Of a DNA stretch of 64,000 bases, positions 1,445 through 63,105 are shown in pieces. Position numbers and translations under genes: made by a program. Each line of letters starts with the position of its first letter. The first letter of the stretch is position 1. Source of the DNA: a virus; the IMG/VR virus record IMGVR_UViG_3300026290_000001. The stretch is one strand, 5' to 3'. The notes beneath the pieces are model-generated. The model was not told the origin of the DNA, did not search any database, and saw only the letters and a list, made by a program, of their open reading frames with translations.

Positions 1445-2002
1445 ATGAAAAGAAAGTTTTTTATTGATTTTGATAATACAATTATAGATACAACCAACGC
1501 TTTCTGCGCAGTTTATAATGAGCTTTATTGCGATCATCCTAATTTTAAAACAGCAGAACCAGATCAAGTTAAGGTTTACAATTTTTCTGACGAATGTCCT
1601 TTAGTTACAAATGTAGAAGAAATTTTTACTCATCCATTATTCTTTCAATTTGCAGAATTTATAAATCACAATACATATGAAACTCTAGAAAAATTAAACA
1701 ATAAATATCAACTTATAGTATGTTCAATAGGTTGGCCTAAAAACTTAGCATACAAGGCACGTTGGTTGGAAGAAAAACTACCTTTTATTAAAGACTATGT
1801 TCTAATCAGTAATCCTACATGCAAAATGAATAAGAGCATTGTAAATATGGAAGGTGCAATATTTTTGGACGATATACCGTCAAACTTATATAGTTCAAAT
1901 GCTGAAAGAAAGATATTATTTGGTAAGAGATATATTTGGAATAAAGAATGGGATGGAGAATGGGTAAGAAGTTGGAGTGAAGTTGAAGGAAGGTTTTTGT
2001 AG
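1445..2002 (+). CDS. HAD-family 5'(3')-deoxyribonucleotidase-like protein
   Basis: HAD motif I FIDFDNTIIDT at the N-terminus and a later FLDDIPSN motif. Size and layout match NT5C-type nucleotidases. Start overlaps the upstream stop (TAAATG). Confidence 0.65.
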   Translation: MKRKFFIDFDNTIIDTTNAFCAVYNELYCDHPNFKTAEPDQVKVYNFSDECPLVTNVEEIFTHPLFFQFAEFINHNTYETLEKLNNKYQLIVCSIGWPKNLAYKARWLEEKLPFIKDYVLISNPTCKMNKSIVNMEGAIFLDDIPSNLYSSNAERKILFGKRYIWNKEWDGEWVRSWSEVEGRFL

Positions 2003-2054
2003 AAGAATTAAAATAGTAATATAAATATATGTTTATATAATAAACATTATTTAA

Positions 2055-2390
2055 GATTTAGTTAAATTTAGTTATAGGACAATCATAGGTGTTCATAAGT
2101 TTATATGGGAAAATGGTGAACCATATAGACCAAATTATTTAAGTGATTTATTTAAAAAGACAGTTACTGATAATAATTTACCACCAATAAGACTGCATGA
2201 TTTAAGACATACATTCGCAAGTGTAGCAAATGAATTAGGAGTTGGATTATATGATATTAGCAAAGCATTAGGTCATAGTCAAATAGGTACTACTAGCGAA
2301 ATATACACACATATGTTTGATAAGACCCATAAGAAAACCATTAGTAAAGTTGCCGATGCCTTTAAAGAAACAGAAAAAAATAAGGAATGA
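2055..2390 (+). pseudogene. C-terminal remnant of a tyrosine recombinase/integrase
   Basis: Open frame with no usable start near its 5' end. It translates to ..IRLHDLRHTFASVANELGVGLYDISKALGHSQIGTTSEIYTHM.., i.e. the HxLRHT box and catalytic-Tyr segment. The N-terminal two thirds of a normal integrase are missing. Confidence 0.7.
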
Positions 2391-13104: not shown

Positions 13105-14397
13105 TCAGTCATGAGATGAATTGGCTCTGTTCTGTTCATATATAATCCATGATTTTCTTGCATTAATTCTTTGCATGTTAGATATTTTCGGTGTCTTCAT
13201 ACCTCTGGGTGCATTACTAAAATCTATTTTTTCACCATCTATACCCATAAGAATGGCATAACCCGTAGACATTCTACCTTTAATAAAATATTCATTACCT
13301 ATATACCTTACTTTATCAAACTTCCTAAATCCTTCTATTTTACCTGTAGGTATCTTCTGATGACTTCTTACTCCTTTTGCCTGTTGGTAATCGCCTTTAG
13401 GGATACACTTTTTTAATACAGCTTTTTCAGTTTTAAAGCTTACATCAATTAACCCTATATCTTCAATATTATTTAAACAGGCAATAGCTACAGCATCGTA
13501 GTAATGCTCTTTTGGTAATCCCATTAGCTGTCTATGTTCTTTGGTAATAAATCCAAAGGTTTCTTTTGCATTTGGTAGCTGTCTTAATAATTGTTGTCTT
13601 ATACTATTCATCTGTGTTGTGTGTTTTAATTGTCCTTTAATTTTACCATTCTTCTTTAATTTAATTCCTCCTTTGTGCAAACTATTATGACAAGTTTTAC
13701 AAAGTGTAATTAAATTTTCTGCATCATCTGAGCCACCATTTTTTCTAAAAACTATATGATGTACCTCTAATCTGCTGTCTTTACTTTTTCCTTTGCAATA
13801 CTGGCAAATATATTTATCTCTACTTAATACATAAGCTTTAGTATTAGCAAATCCATAATTAGTTCCTTTTTGATAAAGCCATTTATTACTTAATACTGCT
13901 GGATTTTTTAAAGCATGTGGGTCAAATGTTGCTGTTTCTATTATTATATTTGTAATGGGCATTATTGATTTTGCAAAATCAATTTCTTTTAAGTGTGAAT
14001 TAATTTTACTTGTCATTGTAGGAGAAAATCTATCTTTTTTAATGCTGTTTTTCCTATTATTAAATCTAGGTTCCCTATATCTAGTTTTCCTATTCCTTCT
14101 AGTTCTCCTATATTTAGCTCTTTTGTCCATTTTGTCAGATATATCATTTCTAATTTCTACTTCTGATATATAATACACTTCATTTTCGTCATTTGCTACT
14201 GCACTTCCTATTTTACTACTACCAGTATCAATTCCTAAAGTTAAATCTTGTGTATAGTCTGTAGCATGATATAGTAATTTAATTGTAAATGGAGTTCTTC
14301 TTATGCATTTTGCTTTACCATCTTTTAACAATAATCTTGCTATTGCTGGTTTACAAGGCATTAAAGGACTCCCATCTTCATTAATTACATAAACCAT
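13105..14397 (-). CDS. iscB: IscB RNA-guided endonuclease (PLMP-RuvC-bridge helix-HNH-RuvC)
   Basis: Domains in order: PLMP (SPLMPCKPAIARLLLKDGKA), RuvC-I (LGIDTGSSKIG), Arg-rich bridge helix (RAKYRRTRRNRKTRYREPRFNNRK) and RuvC-II (IIIETATFD). Then HNH (CQYCKG..EVHHIVFRKNGGSDDAENLITLCKTCHNSLH), RuvC-III (EHYYDAVAIA) and a C-terminal beta domain (FDKVRYIGNEYFIKGRMSTGY). Confidence 0.9.
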   Translation of the reverse strand: MVYVINEDGSPLMPCKPAIARLLLKDGKAKCIRRTPFTIKLLYHATDYTQDLTLGIDTGSSKIGSAVANDENEVYYISEVEIRNDISDKMDKRAKYRRTRRNRKTRYREPRFNNRKNSIKKDRFSPTMTSKINSHLKEIDFAKSIMPITNIIIETATFDPHALKNPAVLSNKWLYQKGTNYGFANTKAYVLSRDKYICQYCKGKSKDSRLEVHHIVFRKNGGSDDAENLITLCKTCHNSLHKGGIKLKKNGKIKGQLKHTTQMNSIRQQLLRQLPNAKETFGFITKEHRQLMGLPKEHYYDAVAIACLNNIEDIGLIDVSFKTEKAVLKKCIPKGDYQQAKGVRSHQKIPTGKIEGFRKFDKVRYIGNEYFIKGRMSTGYAILMGIDGEKIDFSNAPRGMKTPKISNMQRINARKSWIIYEQNRANSSHD

Positions 14398-14681
14398 AAA
14401 ATCAAATCCTTTCGGATAAATACTCTGCTTAAAAGCAGGTTATGCGTATCTATATACTATTACCATATATAGAATTCGTCCTCATCTCGACAATGATAAA
14501 ATAGCTTATATGTATATCACACCGAGCCTTACCCTCCAACTCTACTTAGTGATATACGATAGAGCAATGGTCTGATGCGTCAACCAAAGGTATCATAACT
14601 ATTCTATCGTAGTATAAATTTCTCTATACTAAGTCTGGTGAACTTAGACTTTAGAAGCCTCCGACTTTAGTCGGGGGTAGT
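14398..14681 (-). ncRNA. candidate IscB omega-RNA scaffold
   Basis: Non-coding and visibly GC-richer than its surroundings, directly upstream of iscB. Minus-strand helices: CCCCCGAC/GUCGGAGG, AAGUCU/AGACUU, long-range CUACGAUAGA/UCUAUCGUA, CUGCU/AGCAG, and AUCC-GAAA-GGAU just before the start codon. Confidence 0.6.
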
Positions 14682-14927
14682 TCACTCTATTTCAGGATTG
14701 ATAGATAAATCATCTTTGCTTGTACTATTTACATTAGATAAATTATCTTCATTGGACAAATCATCATTAATAATTTGACTTAATTCGTCTATTTTAGAAC
14801 TTAATTTGATAATCTCTATCTGATACATATTATTTTGTAAACATAAAGTGACTACATCTAAGGGCAAATTACTATTGTTTATTAACTCTGCCAGTTTAAT
14901 ATTAAAATCACTTATAATAAAAATCAC
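14682..14927 (-). CDS. hypothetical protein
   Basis: 81-aa acidic ORF in the minus-strand tail array. Its TGA stop (14682-14684) directly abuts the omega-RNA-like region. Confidence 0.4.
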   Translation of the reverse strand: MIFIISDFNIKLAELINNSNLPLDVVTLCLQNNMYQIEIIKLSSKIDELSQIINDDLSNEDNLSNVNSTSKDDLSINPEIE

Positions 14928-29830: not shown

Positions 29831-30793
29831 TTAAAACACCACATAACTCACACCACTACCAACAATTGCATCTTCACTACCACCAGCAAACGGTACTGGT
29901 TCACTTAAAATATCTAATGGGAAACCTGCTTGATAAGTACCAACCACAAATAATGCTGCTAATTCAGGGGTATTATTAATTATACTTTCTACATTACCTG
30001 GCATTATCTGGTCTGGATCGCCATCAACATTAGTAGGAGAAGTAATTGTTAATAAATTATTAGCAAAACCAACAGTCCCTTGTTGACTTATTCCCGTACC
30101 AGCAACTAATATCACCGAATAATCATTTCCACTTACACCTGCTGTTTTACAATTAATTACCATAGAACCACCTGTTGAACCTGTTACAGTTACACTTGCT
30201 GGAATGGCAAGTTGAGTATCAGCAAATCCTATAGTATCACCAATGGAAGATGTTATTGTTCTTATATATTCAGTGTTATCTACACTGAATTTTATTGTTT
30301 TTGTGTTAAGCGAATCTAATTCAAAATTTTTAGTTGAATCTATTAATGTTGAAGTTGTTCCTATAGAAGTAGATGTACCATGAAGAAGTGCAGTTTGAAT
30401 GGGAGTAGTTATGGTTGCGTTTAGATTAGTAGGGATATTGGTTATTAAACTTGCTCCTACATCAACTACACGACCTGTAATTTTTAATGTTCCTCCACTA
30501 ACGGCAGATACTCGACATCTTACTCCTGCAAAATGTGCTAAATCTATGACGAAAACCTGATTGGCATTACCTGTGACAGATGTAGCAATTGTTAATTCTG
30601 GTAATTTAACAGCAGGAATAGGAAACCAATTAGGTGTAGATGAACCATCACAACCTTCAAAATGTACAGTATAATTAGCCGAACTAATAATATAAACCGC
30701 CATTTGATTGTTTCTACCTGTTTTAAAAGTTACTCCATTACCTGTAGTTGTTACATTATCTTGGAAAATCCAAGAGTTTGTTTGTACGTTCAT
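29831..30793 (-). CDS. structural protein, unknown role
   Basis: 320 aa, Thr/Gly/Val-rich and beta-type in composition. Preceded by a strong RBS (AAAGGAGGC) and the 150-nt CA-rich leader. Confidence 0.45.
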   Translation of the reverse strand: MNVQTNSWIFQDNVTTTGNGVTFKTGRNNQMAVYIISSANYTVHFEGCDGSSTPNWFPIPAVKLPELTIATSVTGNANQVFVIDLAHFAGVRCRVSAVSGGTLKITGRVVDVGASLITNIPTNLNATITTPIQTALLHGTSTSIGTTSTLIDSTKNFELDSLNTKTIKFSVDNTEYIRTITSSIGDTIGFADTQLAIPASVTVTGSTGGSMVINCKTAGVSGNDYSVILVAGTGISQQGTVGFANNLLTITSPTNVDGDPDQIMPGNVESIINNTPELAALFVVGTYQAGFPLDILSEPVPFAGGSEDAIVGSGVSYVVF

Positions 30794-30806: not shown

Positions 30807-30956
30807 TTTTGATTTATGGATTTATGTTGTTTTGAGTGGTTGGTTGATTGATTGGTTAGTTAGTTGGTTGATTTGATTGGTTGAATGATAGTTGATTTGA
30901 TTTGATTTGATTGTTATTTGAGTGATAGTTGAAAGGTTAATAAAATAGGGTAGATA
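30807..30956 (-). other. 150-nt leader with no G on the transcribed (minus) strand
   Basis: By direct reading, no C on the plus strand from 30807 to 30956. The minus-strand RNA is CAA/CCAA/AUCAA-rich and includes a tandem AAATC run. Confidence 0.6.
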
Positions 30957-30976
30957 CTGTAGGAATGTATCTACCC
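30939..30976 (-). terminator. intrinsic terminator after gene 30983-31273
   Basis: Perfect 9-bp stem GGGTAGATA/TATCTACCC (30948-30976) followed on the minus strand by UAUUUUAUU. Confidence 0.6.
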
Positions 30977-30982
30977 ATGTGA

Positions 30983-48380: not shown

Positions 48381-49202
48381 TTAAGGATTTTCTATTACTT
48401 TAGCAGGTCTATATTTATCTTTATAATTATGCCATGCTTTTCTCTGCCATTCTAATTGTTTTTCCCTCCAACAACTCCTACAAAATTTTCTTCTATTAGA
48501 TGTTGCTTTTATTAATTTTCCACATTCATTACAATTAATAATTTTTGGATTACCATTATACAAATCAAAGTAATATCCAATATTATCAAAGGTAGTTATT
48601 TCAAAAACTACTATTCCATTTTCCTTGATATTATTCATAAATATAAGATGAATTTTCCCCTTCATTCTAACATCAACCAATCCTAAAATCTCTAATTCAT
48701 TAATTATGGCATTTATTTTATACTCATTATTAGATATTTTAGACACTTCTAATATCTCATTATATGTATTTTGATTACCACTTATATAATTATATTTTAA
48801 AACATTTCCGTATTTTAATTTATGTATTTCTTTATATATCTTCATTTCTACTAACAAAACAAACAGAATTTTTTTATAATTATACTCTATATCTAAATTA
48901 TTAATGTATTCAATTTCTTCGTTTGTTATAGGAATACTATCAATAATTATTAAAGGGTTATCTTTTCTACCTCCTTTTTTGAGTGCAGTATTAATTTGTT
49001 TGAAATATAAAACATCATTGAAATTAACTATATACTTCTTGCAAAATTCATATAATTTTTCTTTTCGTTGTTTAGGTTTTATGCCAAGTTTTTTCCAATA
49101 TTTAACTAACAAAACCAATTCATAATTATGACGTTCAGTTAAAAATCCATGTTGTTCAATTTGTTTTGCATATTCTTCTTCATTGTATTTTTCTTGAATC
49201 AA
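48381..49202 (-). CDS. hypothetical protein with C-terminal zinc ribbon
   Basis: CNECGKLIKATSNRRKFCRSCW at the C-terminus. Lies directly downstream of the RNA polymerase gene (4-nt overlap). Confidence 0.4.
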   Translation of the reverse strand: MIQEKYNEEEYAKQIEQHGFLTERHNYELVLLVKYWKKLGIKPKQRKEKLYEFCKKYIVNFNDVLYFKQINTALKKGGRKDNPLIIIDSIPITNEEIEYINNLDIEYNYKKILFVLLVEMKIYKEIHKLKYGNVLKYNYISGNQNTYNEILEVSKISNNEYKINAIINELEILGLVDVRMKGKIHLIFMNNIKENGIVVFEITTFDNIGYYFDLYNGNPKIINCNECGKLIKATSNRRKFCRSCWREKQLEWQRKAWHNYKDKYRPAKVIENP

Positions 49203-52003
49203 ATAATCACTTCTTCCAACTTGTACTTTTTATTCAAGTAAACAATACCCCCTTCTTTATTAGGCATGGGAAAAAATATAGATTCTTTTGTGTTTGATTT
49301 AATATTTGAAAAAATATACTTACCAAAGGAATTCCATAAAATATCTTTGTTTGAACTTTTATATTCACAATAAAATATTTCAACTAAATAATTAGTTAAT
49401 TCATATGCGTATGAACATATTTCAAACATTCTACTTTTAAAGTCATCATAAATATTATTTACAATACGATCAGATTCTTCATCAAATTGCTCTTTGTTGG
49501 CATTTTGATTAATACCCATAGTATTCAAGTCTTTTAATTCTTTCATAAATTTTTTATACTCATTTAATACTTTCTGATAGGTTTCTTGATTTTTAGGAAT
49601 ATCATTTTTCATATATAATTTATACAAATCACCTATTTTACTTGTTTTTAATTTACTTTTAATATCAAAATCAACATTTTCAATATGTTTACACAATAAA
49701 TTCATTACACTGTCACTATCAATTACTGGTAAAAATCTATAATATGCATCCACAAAAGACTGTTCTTTTTCATTACAATTTTCCTTAATTAATAGTTCAT
49801 TTAATGTTAATCCAAATTTTTGCTGACTAGACAAATCGTTACTTTTGACATATTTTTTATATTTATTATAGGTATTTTTATAAAGATGAATAAAAAAATA
49901 TGGATGTTTATCCAATAATATTTTATTTAAAAATTCCTTTTCTTTTTTAACTTTTTCATCATCATCTTTATAAATTTTTTGCCTTTCAATCCAAATCTTA
50001 GGAATGCCCTTAACTTTTTTACCTATTTTTGCTTTATCAATTTGAGCAGATTGAAGTTTCGTACACATTTTTAATCTATTTATCAATGTTTGATATTCCA
50101 AACTTTCTTTATTAAAAAGAGGGAGTAAGGCATAAGCACTTGTACTTTTATTTGTTATAGAGCCTATAGTGGAACCAAAGGCGAAAAGATCAGCTTTATA
50201 TAAATCTTCTTCTGTAAATACCATAGATATAGATTTAGGTGCATCATAAACCACTGGCAACTCATCTTGAAATATTGAATTTAATATTGTTTGATCAGAA
50301 GTAGTTGCAATAATATCAAAATCCCAATCACTTCCAGCCCAATTAAGAGTTTCATAACCATGTATATTTACTATTACTCCACCATCATCACAATACTTAT
50401 ACCATTTATTTAATTTATCATGATTAATTAAATTTAATTTCAAATGTTCTGATTTATAAGTAAGTGGTGCTCTCATTGAATCTACGATACAAACATTTTT
50501 TTTATTCCAATAATTACAATAATACTCTTTTTCTTTAAGCAATCCAGTAACCTTTTGCCCGCAAATATGTTGCATCATAGCATAGGGATCACTTACTAAA
50601 ACCTGAAAATTTCCATCTAAAATAATTTCACCAAGACAACCTCTTTTTATGATATTGTTAGTATATTTATAAACTTTATCTCTGATATATTTATCATTTT
50701 TTAATTCATGATTAACTATCAAACTTTTTAACCAATAATTATTACTATACTTTAAAAAATATTGAATACTTTCTTGAGTTATATTTTCTCCTAATAAAAA
50801 TAATAACGTATAATATATATTATCAAAATTGACCCCAGTAACCCAATCAACAAAAGGAGTACAAATCTTCTTAATATCTTTTTGGTTTAAATCCAAAGTC
50901 TGTAAAAATTGATAATTCATTTTTAATATATCATTAGGTTTTTTAGGAGAAGTTAAACTAACACCCCATTTTAAATCATTCATCTCGCAATTATGTATAT
51001 ATTCTTCTAAACTACCAAACGCATTCCAAAGTTTAAATTGACTTTCCGATACAACCACATCGATATCCCTTAAATCAACCTGTATTGGATTATTATTGTC
51101 TTTGTATATAGTATTTATTATATAATTACCATGATTTTCATTTTCACAATATTCATCTATATCAAATACGCAGAGCATCCCTTTCAGAAAATTCTGCCTG
51201 ACACAAAATTGACCAGGAATATAATCTAATCCTAATTCTTCTGCCCATTCTTTAGCTTTACTTGGTTTAATCAACCCTTGACCATCAAACCTATTAAAAC
51301 TCAACTCTACTTCTTTAATTACAATATCATCATCTTTATTTTCTTCTGTTTCAGTTACAAAATTAACATTAACTTTTTGCTTAATTTCATAATCAGGCAC
51401 TACACAAAATTTAGGCGTACTTACTATTTTTGTAGATGAACCCGACAATCCTTTATATGCATTGTATTTAGAAGGGCATAGGGGTATATTTTTATCTCTA
51501 TTATTATCTAAAATTTCATTAAGTTGATTTAAAATTTTCTCGTTGCAAAATACCACTGTTGAAACTCTGGATTGACTGGCAGATGATGATAATCTAAAAT
51601 ACCGTTCAGAATTTAATAATAATCCATTTTTAAATAAATAATTATAATGTGAGTTATGTTCCATTACTATAGTTATGTACTCAGGAATAAAAAGCATATC
51701 TAAAATATTATTTTGTAATTCTATTATTCTACTTGAGTTTTCCTTTGAATATATTTGTTTTTTTAACCTATCTCTTTCTTTATACCATTGTTCAAGTTGT
51801 ATATAATTAATTTCTTTACCAGTTATTTTTCTAATACTTCTAAGAATTTGATTGTCTGATAAAGCAATTAACTCACCATTTTGTTTAGCTTGTTGTGGAG
51901 TTAATTGTATATCATACCCATATTCTTTAAGCCTAGATGATTTAAATTTCATAGTATATAATTGTCTATTTATCAATATTTTTTGCCTCCAATAAATCTT
52001 CAT
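49199..52003 (-). CDS. single-subunit two-barrel RNA polymerase, YonO / cellular-RdRP-like
   Basis: GQFCVRQNFLKGMLCVFD parallels the RdRP Q.R...aKGml.vD barrel motif. VDSMRAPLTYKSEH parallels v.RnP.lhpgD. NWAGSDWDFDIIATT supplies a DxDxD metal-binding loop (coding 50315-50329). The start is uncertain (ATG at 52003, TTG at 51979 or ATG at 51952). Confidence 0.75.
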   Translation of the reverse strand: MKIYWRQKILINRQLYTMKFKSSRLKEYGYDIQLTPQQAKQNGELIALSDNQILRSIRKITGKEINYIQLEQWYKERDRLKKQIYSKENSSRIIELQNNILDMLFIPEYITIVMEHNSHYNYLFKNGLLLNSERYFRLSSSASQSRVSTVVFCNEKILNQLNEILDNNRDKNIPLCPSKYNAYKGLSGSSTKIVSTPKFCVVPDYEIKQKVNVNFVTETEENKDDDIVIKEVELSFNRFDGQGLIKPSKAKEWAEELGLDYIPGQFCVRQNFLKGMLCVFDIDEYCENENHGNYIINTIYKDNNNPIQVDLRDIDVVVSESQFKLWNAFGSLEEYIHNCEMNDLKWGVSLTSPKKPNDILKMNYQFLQTLDLNQKDIKKICTPFVDWVTGVNFDNIYYTLLFLLGENITQESIQYFLKYSNNYWLKSLIVNHELKNDKYIRDKVYKYTNNIIKRGCLGEIILDGNFQVLVSDPYAMMQHICGQKVTGLLKEKEYYCNYWNKKNVCIVDSMRAPLTYKSEHLKLNLINHDKLNKWYKYCDDGGVIVNIHGYETLNWAGSDWDFDIIATTSDQTILNSIFQDELPVVYDAPKSISMVFTEEDLYKADLFAFGSTIGSITNKSTSAYALLPLFNKESLEYQTLINRLKMCTKLQSAQIDKAKIGKKVKGIPKIWIERQKIYKDDDEKVKKEKEFLNKILLDKHPYFFIHLYKNTYNKYKKYVKSNDLSSQQKFGLTLNELLIKENCNEKEQSFVDAYYRFLPVIDSDSVMNLLCKHIENVDFDIKSKLKTSKIGDLYKLYMKNDIPKNQETYQKVLNEYKKFMKELKDLNTMGINQNANKEQFDEESDRIVNNIYDDFKSRMFEICSYAYELTNYLVEIFYCEYKSSNKDILWNSFGKYIFSNIKSNTKESIFFPMPNKEGGIVYLNKKYKLEEVII

Positions 52004-54102: not shown

Positions 54103-54188
54103 AGAATTTCACTCTAAATTCAACGTGAATATGTTTTATGAAGTTCTATATGGTTAGAGTAGCAAAAGCGTTTTTAGAGTGAAATTCT
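54103..54188. repeat. perfect 16-bp inverted repeat with 54-nt spacer
   Basis: AGAATTTCACTCTAAA (54103-54118) pairs with TTTAGAGTGAAATTCT (54173-54188). The right arm overlaps the methyltransferase stop codon. Confidence 0.8.
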
Positions 54189-55014
54189 ATTGATTAGATA
54201 GTAATTTTTCTTTATGTTCCCTTACACGTTTAATTGCTAAATTAAAATATTGATCATGTGGTTCACTCAGACTCCATTCAAAACCTATGTAATTTCTTTC
54301 AGTATTTAAACAAGCTATCGCTGTTGTGCCTGAACCTATGCAATTATCTAAGACTAAATCTCCTTCATTTGTATATGTTTTAATTAGATATTCAAATAAT
54401 TTTACTGGTTTTTGAGTGGGGTGTGGTAATTTTTCTTTAGAATTTGAATTAACTATAGGATTATATATTACAGTTGATGGATTTTTTAATTTTGCATTGT
54501 ACACATCATAACTTCTTCCAGCATAATCTGTATTAAAAACAATTTCATTATCTTTTCTTTTTGAGATAGAACTTCTAAAATTAATATTATTATTTTCTTG
54601 CATTTGTTTCATTCTTTCGCTTTTACGTTCTATCATTTGTCTATTATATGTATATTTATTTTTTGCAAATATTAATATATTTTCATGATATTTTAAATGT
54701 CTATATTTTGCATTTGCAAAATTACTCGCTCTATCTTTTTCCCATATTAGTTCTTCTTTAAACCAATCAATATTACTACAAATTAATTTGCTTGTAAATG
54801 GTTGACTTGCTGTTAATACTATAGCACCATTATCTTTTATAATTCTTTTATACTGTTCCCAAAGTTTATCAAAAGAAATTAAACTATCCCATTTTGCTAT
54901 TGTAGTTCCATAAGGTAGATCACATAAAATCATATCTATACTTTTATCAGGTAATAAACACATACCATTTTCACCAATACAATCTTCGTTATAAATAGTA
55001 TTTAATTTAATCAA
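54187..55014 (-). CDS. DNA methyltransferase (beta-class N6A/N4C type), orphan
   Basis: Motif IV CDLPYGTT comes first, then HPTQKPVKL and motif I DNCIGSGTTAIAC. No adjacent restriction gene. Confidence 0.85.
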   Translation of the reverse strand: MIKLNTIYNEDCIGENGMCLLPDKSIDMILCDLPYGTTIAKWDSLISFDKLWEQYKRIIKDNGAIVLTASQPFTSKLICSNIDWFKEELIWEKDRASNFANAKYRHLKYHENILIFAKNKYTYNRQMIERKSERMKQMQENNNINFRSSISKRKDNEIVFNTDYAGRSYDVYNAKLKNPSTVIYNPIVNSNSKEKLPHPTQKPVKLFEYLIKTYTNEGDLVLDNCIGSGTTAIACLNTERNYIGFEWSLSEPHDQYFNLAIKRVREHKEKLLSNQ

Positions 55015-55089
55015 TTATGTATTATTCCTCCTATATTTATATTACTAAAATAATACTACGACTCAAAATTAAAAAATTATTTCTTACTC

Positions 55090-55413
55090 TTAATCTTTTT
55101 TCTCTTTCTTTTCCTTAGATTTTTTTGCCTTTTGTAATCTTTCTCCCATTTCTTTCTTTTGAGCCTCAGTTAACTTTTTCTTTTTGGTTGGTGCTCTAAA
55201 TGAAATCAACTTCTTATCACAAACAAATTCTTTTCCCACTAATTCATTATCTTCATCAAATTGATCACTAACATGCTGATATGATTCAGGATACTGTTTA
55301 CAAAGTTTATCCAGTTTGTTTAAATCTGCACGAATAAAAGTTATTATTTGTGCTTTTTTAGAATCTTCATCAATCCCTACGCAAGTATAACGCTCCATTT
55401 TTTCTAATGCCAT
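55090..55413 (-). CDS. hypothetical lysine-rich protein
   Basis: 107 aa with a basic C-terminal tail (KKKKLTEAQKKEMGERLQKAKKSKEKKEKKD). Confidence 0.4.
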   Translation of the reverse strand: MALEKMERYTCVGIDEDSKKAQIITFIRADLNKLDKLCKQYPESYQHVSDQFDEDNELVGKEFVCDKKLISFRAPTKKKKLTEAQKKEMGERLQKAKKSKEKKEKKD

Positions 55414-55454
55414 ATGTATAAATTCCTTCTTTCATTTTTATATTAATAAAATAA

Positions 55455-56204
55455 TTAAAATTCCACTAATCTATTTTTCGCTATTTCACAATATTTTTCT
55501 TCTAATTCAATTCCAATACATTTACGTTTAAGATTTCGTGCCGCCAATAAAGTTGTTCCTGAACCACAGGTAAAATCTAAAATAAGATCGTTTTCATTTG
55601 TGTATGTATTAATTAAATATTCCATTAATTCTAATGGTTTTTGTGTAGGATGAAATAAATTATTATTTGGATTTGCAAAATTTAATATATTTTTAGGATA
55701 ACCTTTAGCATTACTATTTCCAAAATGCTTTTCTTTCCCAAAAGTATATTCTCCATCCACTTTATTTTCTCTACTTGGTCTATTATTATTAAATTCTCCA
55801 TAAATTAACCCTTGCGGATTATAAATGCATTGATTTTTATAAAAAACTAAAACATCTTCTATTGCTCTCATTGGTTGTTTTTTAGCATTTAAATGACCAC
55901 TTGGTTTAGTTTTTATCCATTTCCAATCATATTTATATTCTTTAATATTACTAATTCTTAAAAAACTACTAAAAGGTTCTCCTCCAAACAATAATGTAGG
56001 TGTTGTATTTTTTGTTAATTTATGTAATCTATCCCACATGTCATTAAATTTGATAATTTCATCCCATTTACATTTAGTAGTACCGTATGGTGGGTCAGTA
56101 ATTATTGCATCAAATTTAATACCTTTCTCAATAATCTTATCCATTACCTCTAAACAATCACCTTGAAATAATCTTATGTATTCGTCTTTATAGTATAATT
56201 TCAA
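55455..56204 (-). CDS. DNA methyltransferase (beta-class), tandem paralogue 1
   Basis: ITDPPYGTT, HPTQKPLEL and LDFTCGSGTTLLAA. TTG start. The N-terminal ~48 aa and C-terminal ~66 aa are near-identical to the gene at 56249-57034, while the centre differs. Confidence 0.9.
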   Translation of the reverse strand: MKLYYKDEYIRLFQGDCLEVMDKIIEKGIKFDAIITDPPYGTTKCKWDEIIKFNDMWDRLHKLTKNTTPTLLFGGEPFSSFLRISNIKEYKYDWKWIKTKPSGHLNAKKQPMRAIEDVLVFYKNQCIYNPQGLIYGEFNNNRPSRENKVDGEYTFGKEKHFGNSNAKGYPKNILNFANPNNNLFHPTQKPLELMEYLINTYTNENDLILDFTCGSGTTLLAARNLKRKCIGIELEEKYCEIAKNRLVEF

Positions 56205-56248
56205 TTTATGTAAATATATCTCCTTTCATTTTTATATTAATAAAATAA

Positions 56249-57034
56249 TTAAAATTCCACTAATCTATTTTTCGCTATTTCACAATATTTTTCTTCTAAT
56301 TCAATTCCAATACATTTACGTTTAAGATTTCTTGCCGCTAACAATGTTGTCCCTGAACCACAGGTAAAATCTAAAATAAGTTCGTTTTCTTTTGTGTATG
56401 TATTAATAAGGTATTCTAATAGTTCAATTGGTTTTTGAGTCGGATGTAATTTTTTCCCTGACATACTAGCGTTGCTTAAAGTATAAATACTTGTTGGATG
56501 TCTATCTTTATATTCTTTATGCCCCAAGTCTTTTATGGTATGTCCTTCTCTTAATGTGCTATTTCTTGAACCATAAAATGTTTTATTAACTTTTTTTATA
56601 TCATCTCGTTTTGTTTTTTGAGGATAATAATTCATTTCATTACCTTTTGAGAAAACTGCTTTTGCTTTACTAAAAATTAAAATATTTTCATGTACTCTAC
56701 CTACTTGAAAATTCATCATTTGAAAATTAGATGGTTTTACTTTATCCCAAATAATTTCATATCTAAATAGTTGAGGATTACTCATAATTAAAGCACTCGT
56801 AAAAGGTTGAGAACCATTCAATACTATTGCACCTTTATCTTTGATTAATTGAGTAATTTTATCCCACATCTTATCAAAAGGAATTATCGTGTCCCATTTA
56901 CATGCTGTAGTACCATAAGGTGGATCAGTTATTATCGCATCAAATTCAATACCTTTCTCAATCAATTTATCCATCACTTCTAAACAGTCACCTTGAAACA
57001 ATCTTATGTATTCATCTTTATAGTATAATTTCAT
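56249..57034 (-). CDS. DNA methyltransferase (beta-class), tandem paralogue 2
   Basis: ITDPPYGTT, HPTQKPIEL and LDFTCGSGTTLLAA. The last 43 aa are identical to paralogue 1. Confidence 0.9.
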   Translation of the reverse strand: MKLYYKDEYIRLFQGDCLEVMDKLIEKGIEFDAIITDPPYGTTACKWDTIIPFDKMWDKITQLIKDKGAIVLNGSQPFTSALIMSNPQLFRYEIIWDKVKPSNFQMMNFQVGRVHENILIFSKAKAVFSKGNEMNYYPQKTKRDDIKKVNKTFYGSRNSTLREGHTIKDLGHKEYKDRHPTSIYTLSNASMSGKKLHPTQKPIELLEYLINTYTKENELILDFTCGSGTTLLAARNLKRKCIGIELEEKYCEIAKNRLVEF

Positions 57035-57377: not shown

Positions 57378-58139
57378 TTAATTTTGATTATTATTTTTTT
57401 GTGTTTCACTTCTTTGTAAATTAGATTGAATTTTATCAGTGTAGACCAAACCTTGTACTTCTACCTCGCATTTAACTTGGTTATTAAAATTCTTTTTGTC
57501 GTCATATAGACCAATAAAAGTAGTGCAATAATGCTTTTCTTTTGTCCAAAAATCATTATTGTACCTAATTAAATGCAATTCATCTTGAAGTATTTTATTA
57601 TATCGTTGGATGGTACGGGAATCAGTCACCAATTGTTTTAATTTTCCTTGTGTTAAATATCCAAAATTGTTTTGAGTATTAGTTGCTCTTCTACAGGCAA
57701 TGAAATATCTTATCAAACTAAATTTTCCCAAATTGGAACTGCTCAAATATTCAAATATACTATCTATCTCTTTATTTTTAATAATCAAATAATCATTAGC
57801 AGGGGTAGGTGGCAATTCAACATAAAAAAGAAAATTTTTATTAATAATATCATCTGTAGAAATAATATTATAACGTAAATCATAAAAATTAATTATTATT
57901 TTTTTATCTTTCAAAGAAGATAGTACATTTATTAATGTTTTTACAATTCGTTTGTTAGAATTACTATTTATATACATATAATCACAAAGCATTTCTATAT
58001 TACATAAACTAATTGAATGATAATATATATAATTTCTATATAATAAAATAAGTACTGTTAATTCTTCGTTAGATATATTTAAGTCATCATACCATTTATT
58101 AGGTATTATAATAGTTGACTCTTGTAAATTGCTATTCAT
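57378..58139 (-). CDS. hypothetical protein
   Basis: 253-aa ORF in the early/middle region. No motif recognised. Confidence 0.4.
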   Translation of the reverse strand: MNSNLQESTIIIPNKWYDDLNISNEELTVLILLYRNYIYYHSISLCNIEMLCDYMYINSNSNKRIVKTLINVLSSLKDKKIIINFYDLRYNIISTDDIINKNFLFYVELPPTPANDYLIIKNKEIDSIFEYLSSSNLGKFSLIRYFIACRRATNTQNNFGYLTQGKLKQLVTDSRTIQRYNKILQDELHLIRYNNDFWTKEKHYCTTFIGLYDDKKNFNNQVKCEVEVQGLVYTDKIQSNLQRSETQKNNNQN

Positions 58140-59713: not shown

Positions 59714-60592
59714 TTAAATAGCACAATTATTCATACTTTTTCTTATATCATCTTGTGAAGGATGTAAATATATTTGAGTAGTAGAAAGCGAACCATGACC
59801 AAGTATCTGCTGAAGAGCCTTGAGATTCCCACCATTTTCTAAAAAATTAGTAGCAAATACATGTCTTAATGAATGACAAGTTATTACATTACTATGTTTG
59901 TTAAATATTCTTTCAACACTACTACTTTCTAATTTTTCACTTTTGTTGCTTAAAAATAAATATTTACTTCCTAATACATTATAAGCATACTTATAATTCT
60001 TTCTATCATCAATCGCTTTTTTAATAATCTCAATAGCAGTTTCATTCAATGGTATTATTCTTTGCTTACTTCCCTTACCAATAACTTTAAGATTCTTTCT
60101 TTTAAAATTAATATCATCCAACTCAATATTTAATGCTTCAGATATTCTTAAGCCAGTATTCAGAAGTAAAGCAACTATATAATAATTCCTATCACATTCA
60201 TTCTTCCTTATTCTTTCCATAAATTTTATTGCTTCAGATTTAGTAATACTAGTTGGAGATGTTAATTGTTTTTGTATGCGTATATAATCCTGTCCCAATA
60301 TCACCAAACTATCCTGATACCCCATCTTAACCAAAAATTCATTATAACTTTTCAAAGCACTTAACCTTCTATTTATTGTCTTAGCATCAACATTTCTTTC
60401 TTTAAGTAAATATTCCTTATACTCCGCAATCTGATCTCTACTAATAATCTGGGGTTCAATTCCAAAATACTCAAAAAACAAACCAATATCATGAGAATAA
60501 GATTTTATTGTATTGATAGATTTACCTTGTTCTACTAGGTGGTTGATGTATTCGGTTAAATAATTTTCATTTGCAACGAGATTCATATTCAT
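59714..60592 (-). CDS. tyrosine recombinase (XerC/XerD-like)
   Basis: Core-binding N-terminus (SINTIKSYSHDIGLFFEYF). Catalytic segments TGLRISEAL, HSLRHVFAT and LGHGSLSTTQIYLH. Confidence 0.9.
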   Translation of the reverse strand: MNMNLVANENYLTEYINHLVEQGKSINTIKSYSHDIGLFFEYFGIEPQIISRDQIAEYKEYLLKERNVDAKTINRRLSALKSYNEFLVKMGYQDSLVILGQDYIRIQKQLTSPTSITKSEAIKFMERIRKNECDRNYYIVALLLNTGLRISEALNIELDDINFKRKNLKVIGKGSKQRIIPLNETAIEIIKKAIDDRKNYKYAYNVLGSKYLFLSNKSEKLESSSVERIFNKHSNVITCHSLRHVFATNFLENGGNLKALQQILGHGSLSTTQIYLHPSQDDIRKSMNNCAI

Positions 60593-61060: not shown

Positions 61061-61262
61061 TTACATCTTCCTTTCTTAAATTTTGCTCCAATCATTATCA
61101 TAATGTTTATATCCTTGTGGTTTATTTAGTAATGCTTCTTTTATAGTTGCATGTTCAGAGATAATTTTTCACTTTCAGTTTCCTATACATAACCGTTTTC
61201 ATTGATGATAAAGTTATACCAAGGTACTAATAATGCTATTGGCATTGCAACTCTCCTTAATA

Positions 61263-61424
61263 TCATTTCCATTCATTAACATCTCCTTTATGATTTGATC
61301 TATATGGATTGTTTGAATTTCTGGAGTAAGGATTTGTGTGGGTGAACCACCATTGTTGAATGTAGAAAGAAAAATAGGATATCGTTTCTTGTGGATTAAT
61401 ACCTATCCAGTCTAGAAAAAACAT
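61263..61424 (-). CDS. small hypothetical protein (53 aa), first gene of the leftward operon
   Basis: Not in the ORF track. ATG at 61422-61424 lies 8 nt after AAGGAGG; translates MFFLDWIGINPQETISYFSFYIQQWWFTHTNPYSRNSNNPYRSNHKGDVNEWK*. Confidence 0.4.
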   Translation of the reverse strand: MFFLDWIGINPQETISYFSFYIQQWWFTHTNPYSRNSNNPYRSNHKGDVNEWK

Positions 61425-61440
61425 TGTAGGTAAACCTCCT

Positions 61441-62100
61441 TTCTATGTGGAAATGTGTGTAGAAATATATATGGAATTTATATAGTTAAATGTGTTATTT
61501 GATTGATTAATAATATGATTTATTTTTAGATTTTAGAAATGGTAAGTTGTGGATTGTAGGATGGGTTATAAATATGTTTTTAAAGCAAATTTAATTATTT
61601 AGTTTATTTGTAGTCGGGAAGGTATGTGGAACAGGAAGGAATAATTGAGCAGAAAGTAGAATGAATATTGATATATTGGGAGTTTAGATAGTTTTTAGGC
61701 ATGAATTTTGTGTTAATTTTGATTATTGGAAGATTGATACAGAAGGTTGATTTTTTGTTGTCGGGGAAATTGAGATGAAGTGGTGAATTTTTAGGGTGGT
61801 TTTTTATTGAGTTTATAAAGGAATTTGAGTGTAGAAATGGTGATTAGGTGGGAGGTAAGGGGTAAGGGTAGGGAGAGAGGAAATAGGGTGGTTTTAGAGT
61901 GGATTTTGTTGGAGTTTTGTTATAAAGATTGTGGGATTTTTGTTTTTGGGAGTGGGAGGATATTGGGAGAATGTAGATGGGATGGATGTAGGTGAGATGG
62001 ATGGTTTGACGAGTGAGAGACGATGTGAATTTTGGTGGTTTTAGGGATATTTTATGTTGTCGGTATGGAATTTTTGTTTATGTGTGGAATAGATGTGATA
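61441..62100. other. 660-bp cytosine-depleted (plus strand) non-coding tract
   Basis: Hand count finds 11 C in 660 nt, and none from 61763 to 62009 (247 nt). G-rich, with the G4 motif GGGaggtaaGGGGtaaGGGtaGGG at 61850-61873. No ORF on either strand. Confidence 0.8.
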
Positions 62101-62101
62101 G

Positions 62102-62115
62102 CGAACATATGTTCG
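62102..62115. promoter_or_regulatory. LexA (Cheo/SOS) box, perfect consensus
   Basis: CGAACATATGTTCG, the 14-bp palindromic consensus of Gram-positive LexA/DinR operators. Confidence 0.7.
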
Positions 62116-62283
62116 ATTAAAGTGACCGGAAATTTGTAAACTGGGGGTGGTATGGGTAGGTATATATAATACTGATATAATAATAGCACATGACAGGCTA
62201 TAACTCCCGGTATAATGGCATTAGCAAGCTATCTGATAATGCAATATAATGTATGATTATATTGTATTGGGTGAATTGGATCG

Positions 62284-62337
62284 GGGAAATAGCAGGGAAA
62301 ATAAGTGGGAAATAACCTGGGAAGCTGGTAGGGAAAT
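62284..62337 (+). repeat. iteron-like array: five GGGAA(A/G) repeats at 11-12-bp spacing
   Basis: Repeats start at 62284, 62295, 62307, 62319 and 62331 (GGGAAAT, GGGAAAA, GGGAAAT, GGGAAG, GGGAAAT). Further single copies lie at 61764 and 62440. Confidence 0.65.
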
Positions 62338-62426
62338 GACTGATCAGGAAGCATCAAAAAAACTGGTAGTATCGGTAATGAAAATAGTAAAGATAATAAG
62401 TTGTCGTGGAAATCGTTTTTAATAAC

Positions 62427-62440
62427 AGAACAGATGTTCG
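62427..62440. promoter_or_regulatory. LexA (Cheo/SOS) box, one mismatch
   Basis: AGAACAGATGTTCG has the GAAC-N4-GTTC core. It lies 46 nt upstream of the -35 of the rightward promoter. Confidence 0.55.
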
Positions 62441-62485
62441 GGAAATGATTATAAATTAATAAAATAAAAATAATTATAAAAATAC

Positions 62486-62514
62486 TTGCATCTATGTTGG
62501 CAATATGATAGTAT
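62486..62514 (+). promoter_or_regulatory. sigma-A-type promoter with extended -10 for the rightward operon
   Basis: TTGCAT (62486-62491), a 17-nt spacer, then TG-n-TAGTAT (-10 at 62509-62514). Shares the 14-mer AATATGATAGTATA with the moron promoter. Confidence 0.5.
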
Positions 62515-62600
62515 AGTATATAGATATGATCTTTGATAATAGCATAGTAACCTTAGTTTGCCTTACGCAAGCTATCTTTACAAGAAAGGAGGTGGCACGA

Positions 62601-62726
62601 ATGATAATGACTGAAAAAATGAACATAGAAATTGAAAACATTGAAAACATTTTAGCTGATAATGAACTATCCGATACAGAAAAAATCAAGCTTATTGAAC
62701 AGACTATAAAAGCAATAAGAAGGTAA
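62601..62726 (+). CDS. 41-aa helical peptide, copy 1
   Basis: ATG at 62601 lies 8 nt after AGGAGGTG; translates MIMTEKMNIEIENIENILADNELSDTEKIKLIEQTIKAIRR*. The longer track ORF starting at 62526 lacks an RBS. Confidence 0.5.
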   Translation: MIMTEKMNIEIENIENILADNELSDTEKIKLIEQTIKAIRR

Positions 62727-62979: not shown

Positions 62980-63105
62980 ATGATAATGACTGAAAAAATG
63001 AACATAGAAATTGAAAACATTGAAAACATTTTAGCTGATAATGAATTAACAGATAGTGAAAAAATCCAGTATATTGAACAGACTATAAAAGCAATAAGGA
63101 GGTAA
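62980..63105 (+). CDS. 41-aa helical peptide, copy 2
   Basis: Not in the ORF track. ATG at 62980 after AAGAGGTG; translates MIMTEKMNIEIENIENILADNELTDSEKIQYIEQTIKAIRR*. It differs from copy 1 at 4 residues. Confidence 0.5.
   Translation: MIMTEKMNIEIENIENILADNELTDSEKIQYIEQTIKAIRR

What the first reader, a model, noticed from the sequence alone, without database searches (positions are those of the whole stretch)
61441..62100. 660-bp tract almost free of cytosine on one strand, with a G-quadruplex motif, in the divergent control region
Seen in sequence:
- I counted 11 C in 61441-62100, and none at all in 61763-62009 (247 nt). G is abundant.
- No ORF is present on either strand.
- A canonical G4 motif GGGaggtaaGGGGtaaGGGtaGGG lies at 61850-61873, with further G-runs at 61948-61990.
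- TGTGGA(A/T) strings, which are DnaA-box-like on the complement, occur at 61446, 61548, 61625 and 62083, all in one orientation.
- The tract separates the first leftward gene (start at 61424) from the LexA boxes, the iterons and the rightward promoter.

Inference, alternatives:
- An R-loop or G4-type replication origin. A G-rich non-template strand is the classic R-loop promoting configuration.
- A long G-less leader or ncRNA of the leftward operon.
- A tract shaped by selection against a C-targeting (or, on the other strand, G-targeting) host system.

I know of no standard phage feature that explains such extreme strand asymmetry.
Basis: partly seen in the sequence, partly recalled or inferred. 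Interest (0 to 1): 0.65.

Follow-up and report, generated by a model that had tools for sequence, protein, structure and literature searches.

The report
Cytosine-free DNA arm beside phage control centre
A 660-base stretch with almost no cytosine on one strand is real. It is one case of a conserved, apparently undescribed feature of SPbeta-like phages: strand-polar "arms" that flank the genome's control and packaging centre and probably mark DNA that is repeatedly left single-stranded.

Summary
Window 61444-62101 has 1.7% C and 31% G, with a 247-nt C-free core, and is identical in five independent assemblies of a ~135-kb SPbeta-like Clostridia phage.

It is not a one-off:
- At least 12 diverged relatives carry 0.45-1.2-kb arms at the same position, often two of opposite skew around a normal-composition centre.
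- Bacillus phages SPbeta, phi3T, Goe11 and BUCT082 show the same pattern around the published genome opening point.

One rule fits every case: the strand running 5'->3' toward the centre lacks C.
- The bias fades over 0.3-3 kb.
- It overrides coding. ALP genes reach G3 = 0.01, and a conserved protein family is encoded without C and lacks Pro, Ala and His.
- It ignores gene orientation.

This argues against a G-less leader RNA as the general explanation. The G4 motif is unique to this phage, and the skew polarity is terminus-like, not origin-like.

Best reading (confidence about 0.4): a footprint, and possibly an adaptation, of recurrent single-strandedness of the 3'-ending strand next to a fixed DNA end, as in the mitochondrial deamination gradient. 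Single-strandedness itself, and the position of the ends in this phage, were not tested.

The parts
61444..62101 (+). Strand-polar arm. The + strand is 1.7% C, 31% G, 39% T and 29% A; the complementary strand is G-free and C-rich.
   Evidence: Identical in 5 assemblies. Compositional counterparts at the same position in at least 12 relatives.
61763..62009 (+). Completely C-free core (247 nt).
   Evidence: P = 3e-20 per start position.
61850..61873 (+). Canonical G4 motif. It is specific to this lineage and is not part of the conserved feature.
   Evidence: 0 of 16 other arms have one.
61757..61770 (+). Retained-C motif GTTGTCGG(GG). It recurs at 61611-61618 as GTAGTCGG, at 62056-62063, and outside the arm at 62400-62413. 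It holds three of the few surviving Cs and is a candidate protein site.
   Evidence: GTCGG: 3 observed against 0.12 expected. Related TTCGACA repeats occur in the centres of relatives.
61423..61451 (-). Promoter-like TCCACA-N17-TACAAT at the outer edge of the arm. Its -35 hexamer is the first 'TGTGGA' site. It may be the proximal promoter of the leftward operon.
   Evidence: 9 of 12 matches; consensus match only. By analogy, proximal promoters lie outside the arm in the subgroup and in SPbeta.
61263..61424 (-). 53-aa ORF with a Shine-Dalgarno sequence; doubtful gene. Its C3 is 0.19 against about 0.05 in ordinary genes, so the bias leaks past the arm.
   Evidence: Not among the genes called in L003-L007.
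62102..62143 (+). Inner boundary of the arm: LexA (Cheo-type) box CGAACATATGTTCG overlapping a rightward promoter-like TTCGAT-N17-TGTAAACT. It fires away from the arm.
   Evidence: Read. The same composite element occurs in relative L010, on the other strand. LexA-like boxes are listed.
62280..62345 (+). GGGAAAT-type iterons inside the 'centre'.
62428..62440 (+). Second LexA-like box, GAACAGATGTTCG.
62486..62514 (+). Rightward promoter-like TTGCAT-N17-(TGa)TAGTAT ahead of the small rightward genes.
   Evidence: Read.
59714..60592 (-). XerC/MrpR-like tyrosine recombinase. It is the first well-supported gene of the leftward operon, which runs on to the YonO-type RNA polymerase (49199-52003) and the structural genes.
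   Evidence: PF05183 is recorded for the homologue in L008.

Best explanation
The tract is one arm of a conserved, position-defined strand asymmetry that flanks the control and packaging centre of SPbeta-like phages. In every arm, the strand that runs 5'->3' toward the centre has lost nearly all C and is enriched in G and T.

The most likely cause is that this strand is repeatedly left single-stranded, starting from a fixed DNA end or nick at the centre. In Bacillus SPbeta phages that centre is the mapped genome opening (pac) point.

Proposed mechanism:
- 5'->3' resection of that end during re-circularisation or recombination-dependent replication exposes exactly this strand, most often close to the end.
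- Cytosine deamination in single-stranded DNA (C->U->T), and the slower A->I->G, then erode C and raise G. Vertebrate mitochondrial H-strands show the same process.
- Selection may keep the result, because a C-free strand is deamination-proof and cannot fold.

Shown here: the composition, its conservation, the geometry, the distance gradient, the override of coding, and the coincidence with the opening point in Bacillus phages.

Inferred: the single-strandedness, resection as its source, any adaptive value, and that this window's centre (62102-62600) contains the DNA end.
For: (1) The feature is real and conserved in composition rather than sequence.
- The window arm has 1.7% C.
- Arms of 450-1166 nt with 1-2% of the depleted base occur in L008, L018-L021, L024, L028, L031, L032, L039 and L042.
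- Within the aligned subgroup, A/C/T on the G-poor strand interchange freely at 25-30% divergence. Differences involving G are about 1-8% of all differences, against 35-50% in the adjacent centre.

(2) Many loci have two arms of opposite skew around a centre of normal composition (250-650 bp where it could be measured, about 0.9 kb in L018):
- L024;
- L018 and L063;
- L010;
- SPbeta, phi3T and Goe11.

(3) The polarity follows position, not gene sense.
- Outward genes are G-poor in sense: L010 ALP has G3 0.01 and C3 0.21; L008 ALP has G3 0.06 and C3 0.17.
- Inward genes are C-free in sense. L018 3092..3382 has 1.0% C, belongs to a family conserved at 63-99% identity, and all members lack Pro, Ala and His.

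(4) The bias follows a distance gradient.
- In L018 the sense-strand C of the genes rises from 1% to 5% to 10% over about 3 kb.
- In L010 the bias decays over about 3 kb.
- In the window, C3 is 0.19 and 0.15 in the first two ORFs and 0.05 beyond.

(5) In SPbeta the arms end at L057:14531 and begin again at 14782.
- The 250-bp gap equals the '~250 bp block' reported at the genome opening point between yonP and yonR (bioRxiv 10.1101/2021.11.22.469490).
- The BUCT082 genome record starts at the equivalent of 14781 and ends in a 330-nt arm with 3-7% C.

(6) In most relatives the shift from the synonymous-site baseline resembles G->A plus T->C on the complementary strand, that is C->T and A->G on the exposed strand.

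(7) As ssDNA the C-free strand is essentially unfolded: -4.8 kcal/mol over 658 nt, against -66 for a control stretch.
Against: - No physical-end data exist for this phage. Its three ~135-kb contigs break at different places.
- The window and L008 have only one arm.
- In L008 there is almost no separate centre.
- Clostridium phage c-st has defined 404-bp terminal repeats but lacks strong arms.
- T7 and SPP1 lack inverted arms, so the effect is not general to phages with terminal repeats or pac sites.
- SPbeta phages are described as headful packagers, so only some virions would carry an end at pac.
- G at 31% in the window, with purines at only 41% on the complementary strand, is more than deamination of typical intergenic DNA would give. 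Some selection or a different starting composition is needed.
- Pairwise differences in the arms are rich in A<->T and A<->C rather than transitions, although alignment of low-complexity DNA is noisy.
- A transcript running from the centre into the arm exists in SPbeta: ncr1052 (PMC2965217).
Confidence: 0.4

Rival explanations
1. The tract is an RNA-level element. Outward transcripts from the SOS-controlled centre would be G-free, C-rich, unable to fold and unable to be translated, since every start codon and the Shine-Dalgarno sequence need G. Such RNA would serve as a very long Rho-loading and insulating zone, or as a nuclease-resistant leader, ahead of the 58-kb leftward operon.
For: - The G-free strand folded as RNA gives -1.5 kcal/mol over 658 nt, against -123 +/- 16 for random windows.
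- C-rich, G-poor, untranslated RNA is the textbook rut composition (PMC6144790 and PMC6407284, listed).
- In this window and in L008 the arm runs right up to the Shine-Dalgarno sequence.
- L008 has a sense-strand TTGAAC-16-TACAAT at the upstream end of its arm.
- A second 150-nt G-less stretch precedes an internal late gene at 30807-30956.
- SPbeta ncr1052 (183 nt, same sense as yonP) maps from the centre into the arm, and no intrinsic terminator was predicted there.
Against: - In L018, L063 and L065, genes in the arms are on the other strand, so their mRNAs are C-less.
- The only sigma-A promoter conserved in 9 of 9 subgroup members, and the best one in SPbeta, lie between the arm and the first gene.
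- The bias extends into translated genes and changes amino-acid usage. Rho loading does not require that.
- Complete exclusion of G is far more than rut function needs.
- No promoter upstream of the window's arm points into it. The LexA-box promoter fires the other way.
Confidence: 0.2
2. The cause is single-strand exposure, as in the best explanation, but from replication. Forks moving toward the centre stall there, for example at Rep-iteron or other protein complexes, or at a terminus. The lagging-strand template just behind the stalled fork then stays single-stranded. Unidirectional theta replication would give one arm and convergent forks two.
For: - The geometry and the kb-scale gradient are the same.
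- The window's centre has iterons, an AT-rich stretch and LexA boxes.
- Relatives encode plasmid-type functions next to the arms: ALP/ParM, FtsK-like, Replic_Relax and a Xer-like recombinase.
- The + to - skew switch is terminus-like.
Against: - SPbeta is an integrated prophage with arms at its packaging or opening point, not a plasmid.
- There is no evidence for fork barriers.
- The replication mode of these phages is unknown (PMC8270828).
Confidence: 0.15
3. The tract is an R-loop or G4-type replication origin. Inward transcripts would be G-rich and C-free, form stable RNA:DNA hybrids and prime replication at the centre. The displaced strand would be the one that loses C.
For: - The geometry is compatible.
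- A G-rich non-template strand favours R-loops (PMC3787257, listed).
- One G4 motif is present.
- Weak + strand promoter-like sites lie at 61239-61294.
- Antisense -10-like elements lie at the outer boundary in some subgroup members.
Against: - The G4 motif is absent from 16 of 16 other arms.
- The inward promoter-like sites are not conserved (4 of 9 at best) and are no more frequent than in shuffled sequence.
- The model needs inward transcription on both sides regardless of gene orientation.
- The skew polarity is opposite to that expected around an origin.
Confidence: 0.07
4. The arms are arrays of polar G-rich motifs, like KOPS/SRS or Chi. They would steer a DNA translocase or recombination machine (FtsK/SpoIIIE-like protein, terminase, AddAB) toward a site in the centre used by the neighbouring Xer-like recombinase.
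For: - KOPS and SRS motifs also point 5'->3' toward dif on the G-rich strand (own knowledge).
- A Xer-like recombinase and FtsK-like genes lie nearby.
- TGTGGA(A/T) and GTCGG are over-represented in the window's arm.
Against: - No 6-mer is shared and enriched across independent arms.
- There are no iteron arrays.
- Periodicity near 11 bp is at best weak.
- Motif arrays do not require total exclusion of C, or C-free coding.
Confidence: 0.06

Closest known systems
Strand-asymmetric deamination gradient of vertebrate mitochondrial DNA (H strand exposed during strand-displacement replication)
   Same: One strand loses C and gains G and T, so its complement is A/C-rich and G-poor. The strength scales with exposure. 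Synonymous sites and amino-acid usage are both reshaped. The compositions are very similar.
   Different: Here the effect is confined to 0.3-3 kb next to one site in a 135-kb dsDNA phage. It reaches near-total exclusion (0-2%). The source of single-strandedness is inferred, not known. The comparison rests on my own knowledge of that literature.
Replication GC skew and its sign change at a terminus or dif site
   Same: The skew changes from + to - across the centre, and a Xer-type recombinase lies nearby.
   Different: Chromosomal skews are a few percent over megabases. These arms have skews of 0.8-1.0 over hundreds of bases.
pac region or 'genome opening point' of SPbeta-like phages (Fink & Zahler 1982; Kohm et al., bioRxiv 10.1101/2021.11.22.469490), and SPP1 pacL-pacC-pacR
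   Same: In SPbeta, phi3T, Goe11 and BUCT082 the arms flank the mapped opening point and its 250-bp block. SPP1 pac also has two flanking arms bound by small terminase.
   Different: No strand asymmetry is mentioned in the passages of the two SPbeta papers I searched. SPP1 shows none in the 800 bases after its record start. The packaging site of the window's phage is unmapped.
Rho utilisation (rut) sites / C>G bubbles
   Same: The outward transcript would be C-rich, G-poor, unstructured and untranslated.
   Different: rut sites are about 80 nt and merely G-poor. Here the tracts are 0.5-2.7 kb with almost no G (0-5%), extend into genes, and in some phages lie antisense to them.
GC-skewed R-loop zones (CpG-island promoters, ColE1 RNA II, mitochondrial CSB II)
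   Same: Strong G-over-C asymmetry, plus one G4 motif in this window.
   Different: No conserved promoter drives a G-rich transcript, and the G4 motif is not conserved.
Eukaryotic telomeric G-strand
   Same: A G/T-rich strand that is nearly or wholly C-free runs 5'->3' toward a DNA end and would form the 3' overhang.
   Different: There is no short tandem repeat and no telomerase. The resemblance is geometric only.

Membership tests
Rho-dependent attenuator / rut site | The RNA is C-rich, G-poor and unstructured. | tested here: met
   The sense strand is 31% C and 1.7% G. Its MFE is -1.5 kcal/mol over 658 nt.
Rho-dependent attenuator / rut site | The region is transcribed in that sense from an upstream promoter and lies in the untranslated part of the transcript. 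| tested here: inconclusive
   No sense-strand promoter was found upstream of the window's arm. The conserved promoters in the subgroup and in SPbeta lie downstream of the arm. SPbeta ncr1052 enters the arm.
Rho-dependent attenuator / rut site | The feature always lies on the sense strand of the regulated transcript. | tested here: not met
   L018, L063 and L065 carry genes on the opposite (C-free) strand inside the arms.
Rho-dependent attenuator / rut site | Termination depends on Rho. | not testable with these tools
   Needs a rho mutant or in-vitro assays.
R-loop / G4 replication origin | G-quadruplex or G-cluster motifs are conserved. | tested here: not met
   One motif in the window and none in 16 other arms.
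R-loop / G4 replication origin | A promoter sends a G-rich transcript into the region. | tested here: not met
   There is no conserved inward promoter (at most 4 of 9 members). Promoter-like hits are at chance level.
R-loop / G4 replication origin | Skew polarity is origin-type (- to +) around the site. | tested here: not met
   The polarity is + to - in all two-armed loci.
DnaA-box cluster | Several close matches to TTATCCACA. | tested here: not met
   The four TGTGGA(A/T) sites each have at least 2 mismatches in the 9-mer. The hexamer itself is enriched.
ssDNA-exposure (deamination) strand asymmetry | C is lost and G/T gained on one strand only. | tested here: met
ssDNA-exposure (deamination) strand asymmetry | The bias grades with distance from a fixed point and is independent of transcription sense. 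| tested here: met
ssDNA-exposure (deamination) strand asymmetry | Synonymous sites and amino-acid usage shift in the predicted direction. | tested here: met
   G3 is 0.01 in L010 ALP. The C-free genes are rich in Val, Ile, Tyr and Phe and lack Pro, Ala and His. The conserved residual C in the three orthologues of the 96-aa gene sits in the Gln codon CAA/CAG, where C->T would create a stop codon.
ssDNA-exposure (deamination) strand asymmetry | The depleted strand is actually single-stranded in vivo. | not testable with these tools
   Needs ssDNA footprinting.
Flank of the packaging site or terminal repeat of SPbeta-like phages | The arm lies next to mapped virion DNA ends. | tested here: inconclusive
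   Met for Bacillus SPbeta-type phages through the literature and the BUCT082 record ends. Unmapped for the window's phage. Not met in c-st.
Iteron or centromere array (parC-like) | Regular arrays of direct repeats. | tested here: not met
Known RNA family (Rfam) | A covariance-model match. | tested here: not met
   No relevant hit at E<=1. The centre has no conserved fold.

The most novel reading that the evidence does not exclude
The arms are functional, telomere-like end structures of SPbeta-type phages, in which cytosine is actively excluded by selection from the strand that becomes the 3' single-stranded tail. Possible benefits are resistance to spontaneous or enzymatic ssDNA deamination and uracil excision, an inability to fold, and repair by gap-filling that needs no dGTP. 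The exclusion would be strong enough for whole protein families to have evolved to be encoded without C. If so, genome ends and packaging direction could be read from sequence alone.
Probability: 0.2. Interest if true: 0.85.

Novelty: new variant of a known kind. Interest (0 to 1): 0.7.

Why it matters
If the reading is right, a plain composition scan would locate the physical ends or packaging origin of a large group of temperate Firmicutes phages and phage-plasmids, including relatives of the botulinum-toxin phage. It would also give the polarity of end processing, directly from metagenomic contigs.

It would be a viral parallel to the mitochondrial deamination gradient, and would point to a long-lived single-stranded intermediate in the life cycle of SPbeta, a classic model phage whose replication and packaging are still uncharacterised.

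The C-free genes are interesting in their own right. They are a natural experiment in building conserved proteins from a reduced codon and amino-acid alphabet. In practice, the arms are easy targets for inversion or recoding experiments in SPbeta or phi3T.

Tried and rejected
- DNA similarity of the tract to cultured phages: no match in near or distant mode.
- Single-protein locus searches with the recombinase and RadC returned nothing or unrelated GC-rich contigs.
- Rfam at a permissive threshold found nothing relevant on the window's control region or on the L024 arms and centre.
- The conserved centre is not a structured RNA: consensus energy -4 kcal/mol.
- Iteron or centromere arrays in the arms: none.
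- A boxA-like antitermination motif: the pattern was too degenerate and at chance level.
- Helical periodicity of A-tracts: weak, about 11-11.5 bp, barely above shuffles in a few arms.
- A shared polar 6-mer (KOPS or Chi-like): none.
- Simple C->T hypermutation of ordinary DNA was rejected for the window because G is doubled.
- Transcription-associated deamination of the non-template strand was rejected because outward operons show the opposite sign.
- Origin-type replication skew was rejected on polarity.
- Generality to other end-defined phages: c-st, T7 and SPP1 lack inverted arms.
- An exact-pattern scan for the B. subtilis 168 locus in genome contigs found nothing. The position of ncr1052 was therefore calibrated from other SPbeta ncRNAs to +/-38 nt.
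- Pfam and PHROG scans could not name the genes flanking the arms or the 320-aa gene behind the second tract.

Full report
**1.

Positions 61441-62100 contain 258 T, 202 G, 189 A and 11 C, and 61763-62009 has no C at all. This 247-nt run is the longest C-free run in the window. At the window's C frequency its chance is 3e-20 per start position. A log-odds segment score delimits the tract as 61444-62101.

G is about twice its background level. Overall GC content is therefore kept, but it sits on one strand. This is not plain C-to-T decay.

The hexamer is enriched: 4 sites against 0.57 expected. All four are poor DnaA boxes (read).

The sequence of 61200-62600 is 100% identical in five assemblies from three sources, so the tract is not an assembly artefact.

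**2. Genomic context**

Almost all genes from 2.9 to 61.4 kb lie on the minus strand. They include:
- a Xer/MrpR-like tyrosine recombinase;
- an HNH endonuclease;
- several N6/N4 methyltransferases;
- a 934-aa protein whose homologue in a relative carries the YonO-type RNA-polymerase domain PF05183;
- terminase and portal.

Complete-looking contigs are 134-138 kb. The only cultured relatives of the 253-aa anchor protein (57378-58139) are the Clostridium botulinum phages c-st and D-1873, which are annotated with many SPbeta homologues. The window therefore comes from an SPbeta-like phage, or phage-plasmid, of Clostridia.

The tract lies between the head of the long leftward operon and a control region. 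That region holds two LexA boxes, GGGAAAT iterons and rightward promoters.

**3. The tract is one member of a conserved class**

I used the anchor protein to collect related loci. At least 12 diverged relatives carry tracts of 450-1166 nt with 1-2% of the depleted base at the equivalent place. Most are non-coding.

Far relatives share composition but not sequence. Within one subgroup the tracts align at 65-85% identity. On the G-poor strand, A, C and T interchange freely there. Differences involving G are about 1-8% of all differences, against 35-50% in the adjacent centre.

Many loci have two arms of opposite skew around a centre of ordinary composition. In the aligned subgroup the centre is 500-650 bp. 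It carries conserved protein-site-like blocks and is not a structured RNA.

**4. The rule that fits every locus is positional**

The strand that runs 5'->3' toward the centre is the C-free, G/T-rich one. This holds in three situations:

- **Non-coding arms.** This applies to the window and the aligned subgroup.
- **Genes pointing away from the centre.**
  - In L010 the ALP (ParM-like) gene has G3 = 0.01 and C3 = 0.21.
  - The bias there decays over about 3 kb.
  - In L008 the ALP gene has G3 = 0.06 and C3 = 0.17.
- **Genes pointing toward the centre.**
  - L018 3092..3382(-) has a Shine-Dalgarno sequence and 1.0% C.
  - It belongs to a family conserved at 63-99% identity, and every member lacks Pro, Ala and His.
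  - Neighbouring genes in L018, L063 and L065 behave alike.

In L018 the sense-strand C of the genes rises from 1% to 5% to 10% over about 3 kb from the centre. In the window the first two ORFs beyond the arm have C3 of 0.19 and 0.15, against 0.05 further on.

A feature that overrides coding, ignores gene sense and fades with distance from a point acts on the DNA strand. It is not specific to one transcript.

**5. Link to a mapped DNA end in Bacillus phages**

In SPbeta the yonP-yonR intergenic region has a C-poor, 31%-G segment ending at L057:14531 and a G-free segment starting at 14782. phi3T and Goe11 show the same two arms.

This intergenic region holds the genome opening (pac) point of SPbeta-like phages. 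Reads there show a sharp '~250 bp block', and packaging proceeds toward yonP (bioRxiv 10.1101/2021.11.22.469490; PMC8270828).

The gap between the SPbeta arms is 250 bp. The BUCT082 genome record starts at the equivalent of 14781 and ends in a 330-nt arm with 3-7% C. In these phages the arms therefore flank the terminal block. The C-free strand is the one whose 3' end would lie at the DNA end.

**6. Mechanism (inferred)**

5'->3' resection from a fixed end exposes exactly this strand, most often close to the end. Forks stalling at the centre would do the same.

Single-stranded DNA deaminates C->U, and more slowly A->I. This is the process held responsible for the G/T-rich H strand and the G-starved coding strand of vertebrate mitochondria (own knowledge). 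In most relatives the shift from the synonymous-site baseline matches this: G->A plus T->C on the complementary strand.

The window's 31% G, and the retention of 0.66 kb of non-coding DNA, suggest that selection also acts. As ssDNA the C-free strand is essentially unfolded: -4.8 kcal/mol against -66 for a control stretch. It also cannot be deaminated at C.

**7.

- **R-loop/G4 origin.**
  - The G4 motif is absent from 16 other arms.
  - Inward promoters are not conserved.
  - The skew polarity is terminus-like.
- **G-less leader.**
  - It is attractive in this window. As RNA the G-free strand folds at -1.5 kcal/mol against -123 +/- 16, and it can contain no start codon.
  - SPbeta does make a small RNA, ncr1052, running from the centre into the arm (PMC2965217).
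  - The conserved promoters, however, sit between arm and gene.
  - The window's LexA-box promoter fires away from the arm.
  - The inward C-free genes contradict the idea as a general rule.
  - I keep it as the main rival, possibly a secondary use of the same DNA.

**8. Weak points**

- No end mapping exists for this phage.
- The window and L008 have a single arm.
- c-st, T7 and SPP1 lack such arms.
- Headful packaging would dilute exposure at pac.
- Substitution patterns in the arms are not transition-dominated.
- The single-strandedness is entirely inferred.

**9. Novelty**

The literature searches aimed at such a feature and the passages I read in two SPbeta papers found no description of cytosine-free arms or C-free genes at a phage packaging site.

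The principle, asymmetric decay of exposed single strands, is known. Its appearance as near-absolute, kb-scale, inverted arms around a phage centre appears to be new.

Noticed in passing
window 30807-30956 (with hairpin 30950-30980; gene 29831-30793 on -): A second C-free stretch (150 nt; T 48%, G 28%) made of GATTG/GGTTG-like repeats lies just upstream of a 320-aa late gene inside the unidirectional operon. A G+C-rich hairpin precedes it. In mRNA sense it is a G-less CAA/CAAT-rich leader, reminiscent of unstructured translational enhancers. Alternatively it may be another exposed-strand site.
   Followed up: partly
window 13105-14685 (-): A HEARO (IscB omega-type) RNA at 14475-14685 (121.7 bits against a gathering score of 83) lies next to a 430-aa ORF at 13105-14397. 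Together they look like an IscB-like mobile element inside the phage.
   Followed up: no
L018 2690-3879, L063 54-1036, L065 486-2553: This is a conserved cassette of small genes encoded almost without cytosine (0.6-5% C). The products have essentially no Pro or Ala and few His, Thr or Gln. The best-sampled family (96 aa, MIINVQNMGGYYLVMEFIEGSVVNL...) keeps this at 63-99% identity.
   Followed up: yes
L010 4391-6761; L008 2173-3093: Actin-like (ALP/ParM) partition genes and their neighbours at the head of the operon are recoded to avoid G. In L010, G3 is 0.01 and G1 is halved. The proteins are rich in Thr, Ser, Leu, Ile, Asn, Gln and Pro.
   Followed up: partly
L057 14531-14781 (SPbeta record 64531-64781): The distance between the two SPbeta arms is 250 bp. 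This matches the unexplained '~250 bp block' of raised read coverage at the opening point in Kohm et al., and it might be a short direct terminal repeat. Phage c-st has a 404-bp one.
   Followed up: partly
window 62601-62726 and 62980-63105: Two near-identical 41-aa genes (MIMTEKMNIEIENIENILADNEL...) lie about 380 bp apart. Two independent contigs end inside the first copy, so this repeat breaks assemblies.
   Followed up: partly
window 54187-57034 compared with L003 and L004: A tandem set of N6/N4 DNA methyltransferase genes varies in copy number between otherwise identical assemblies: one gene in L003, four in L004.
   Followed up: no
window 1903-2079: Another C-poor stretch on the + strand (177 nt, 1% C) spans the 3' end of a 5'-nucleotidase-like ORF (1445-2002) and the spacer after it. 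It is unexplained.
   Followed up: no
window 62102-62143 and L010 about 2150-2200 (-): The same composite element is shared by two diverged phages: a LexA box overlapping the -35, a 17-nt spacer, TGTAAACT and then a G or C run. It is probably the SOS-controlled early promoter.
   Followed up: partly
L024 7002-8490: Directly downstream of the arm, L024 has two genes with Pfam matches. The radical-SAM match is weak and below the curated cut-off. The match to a class-II aminoacyl-tRNA-synthetase core domain is above it. These genes are absent from the window's phage.
   Followed up: no
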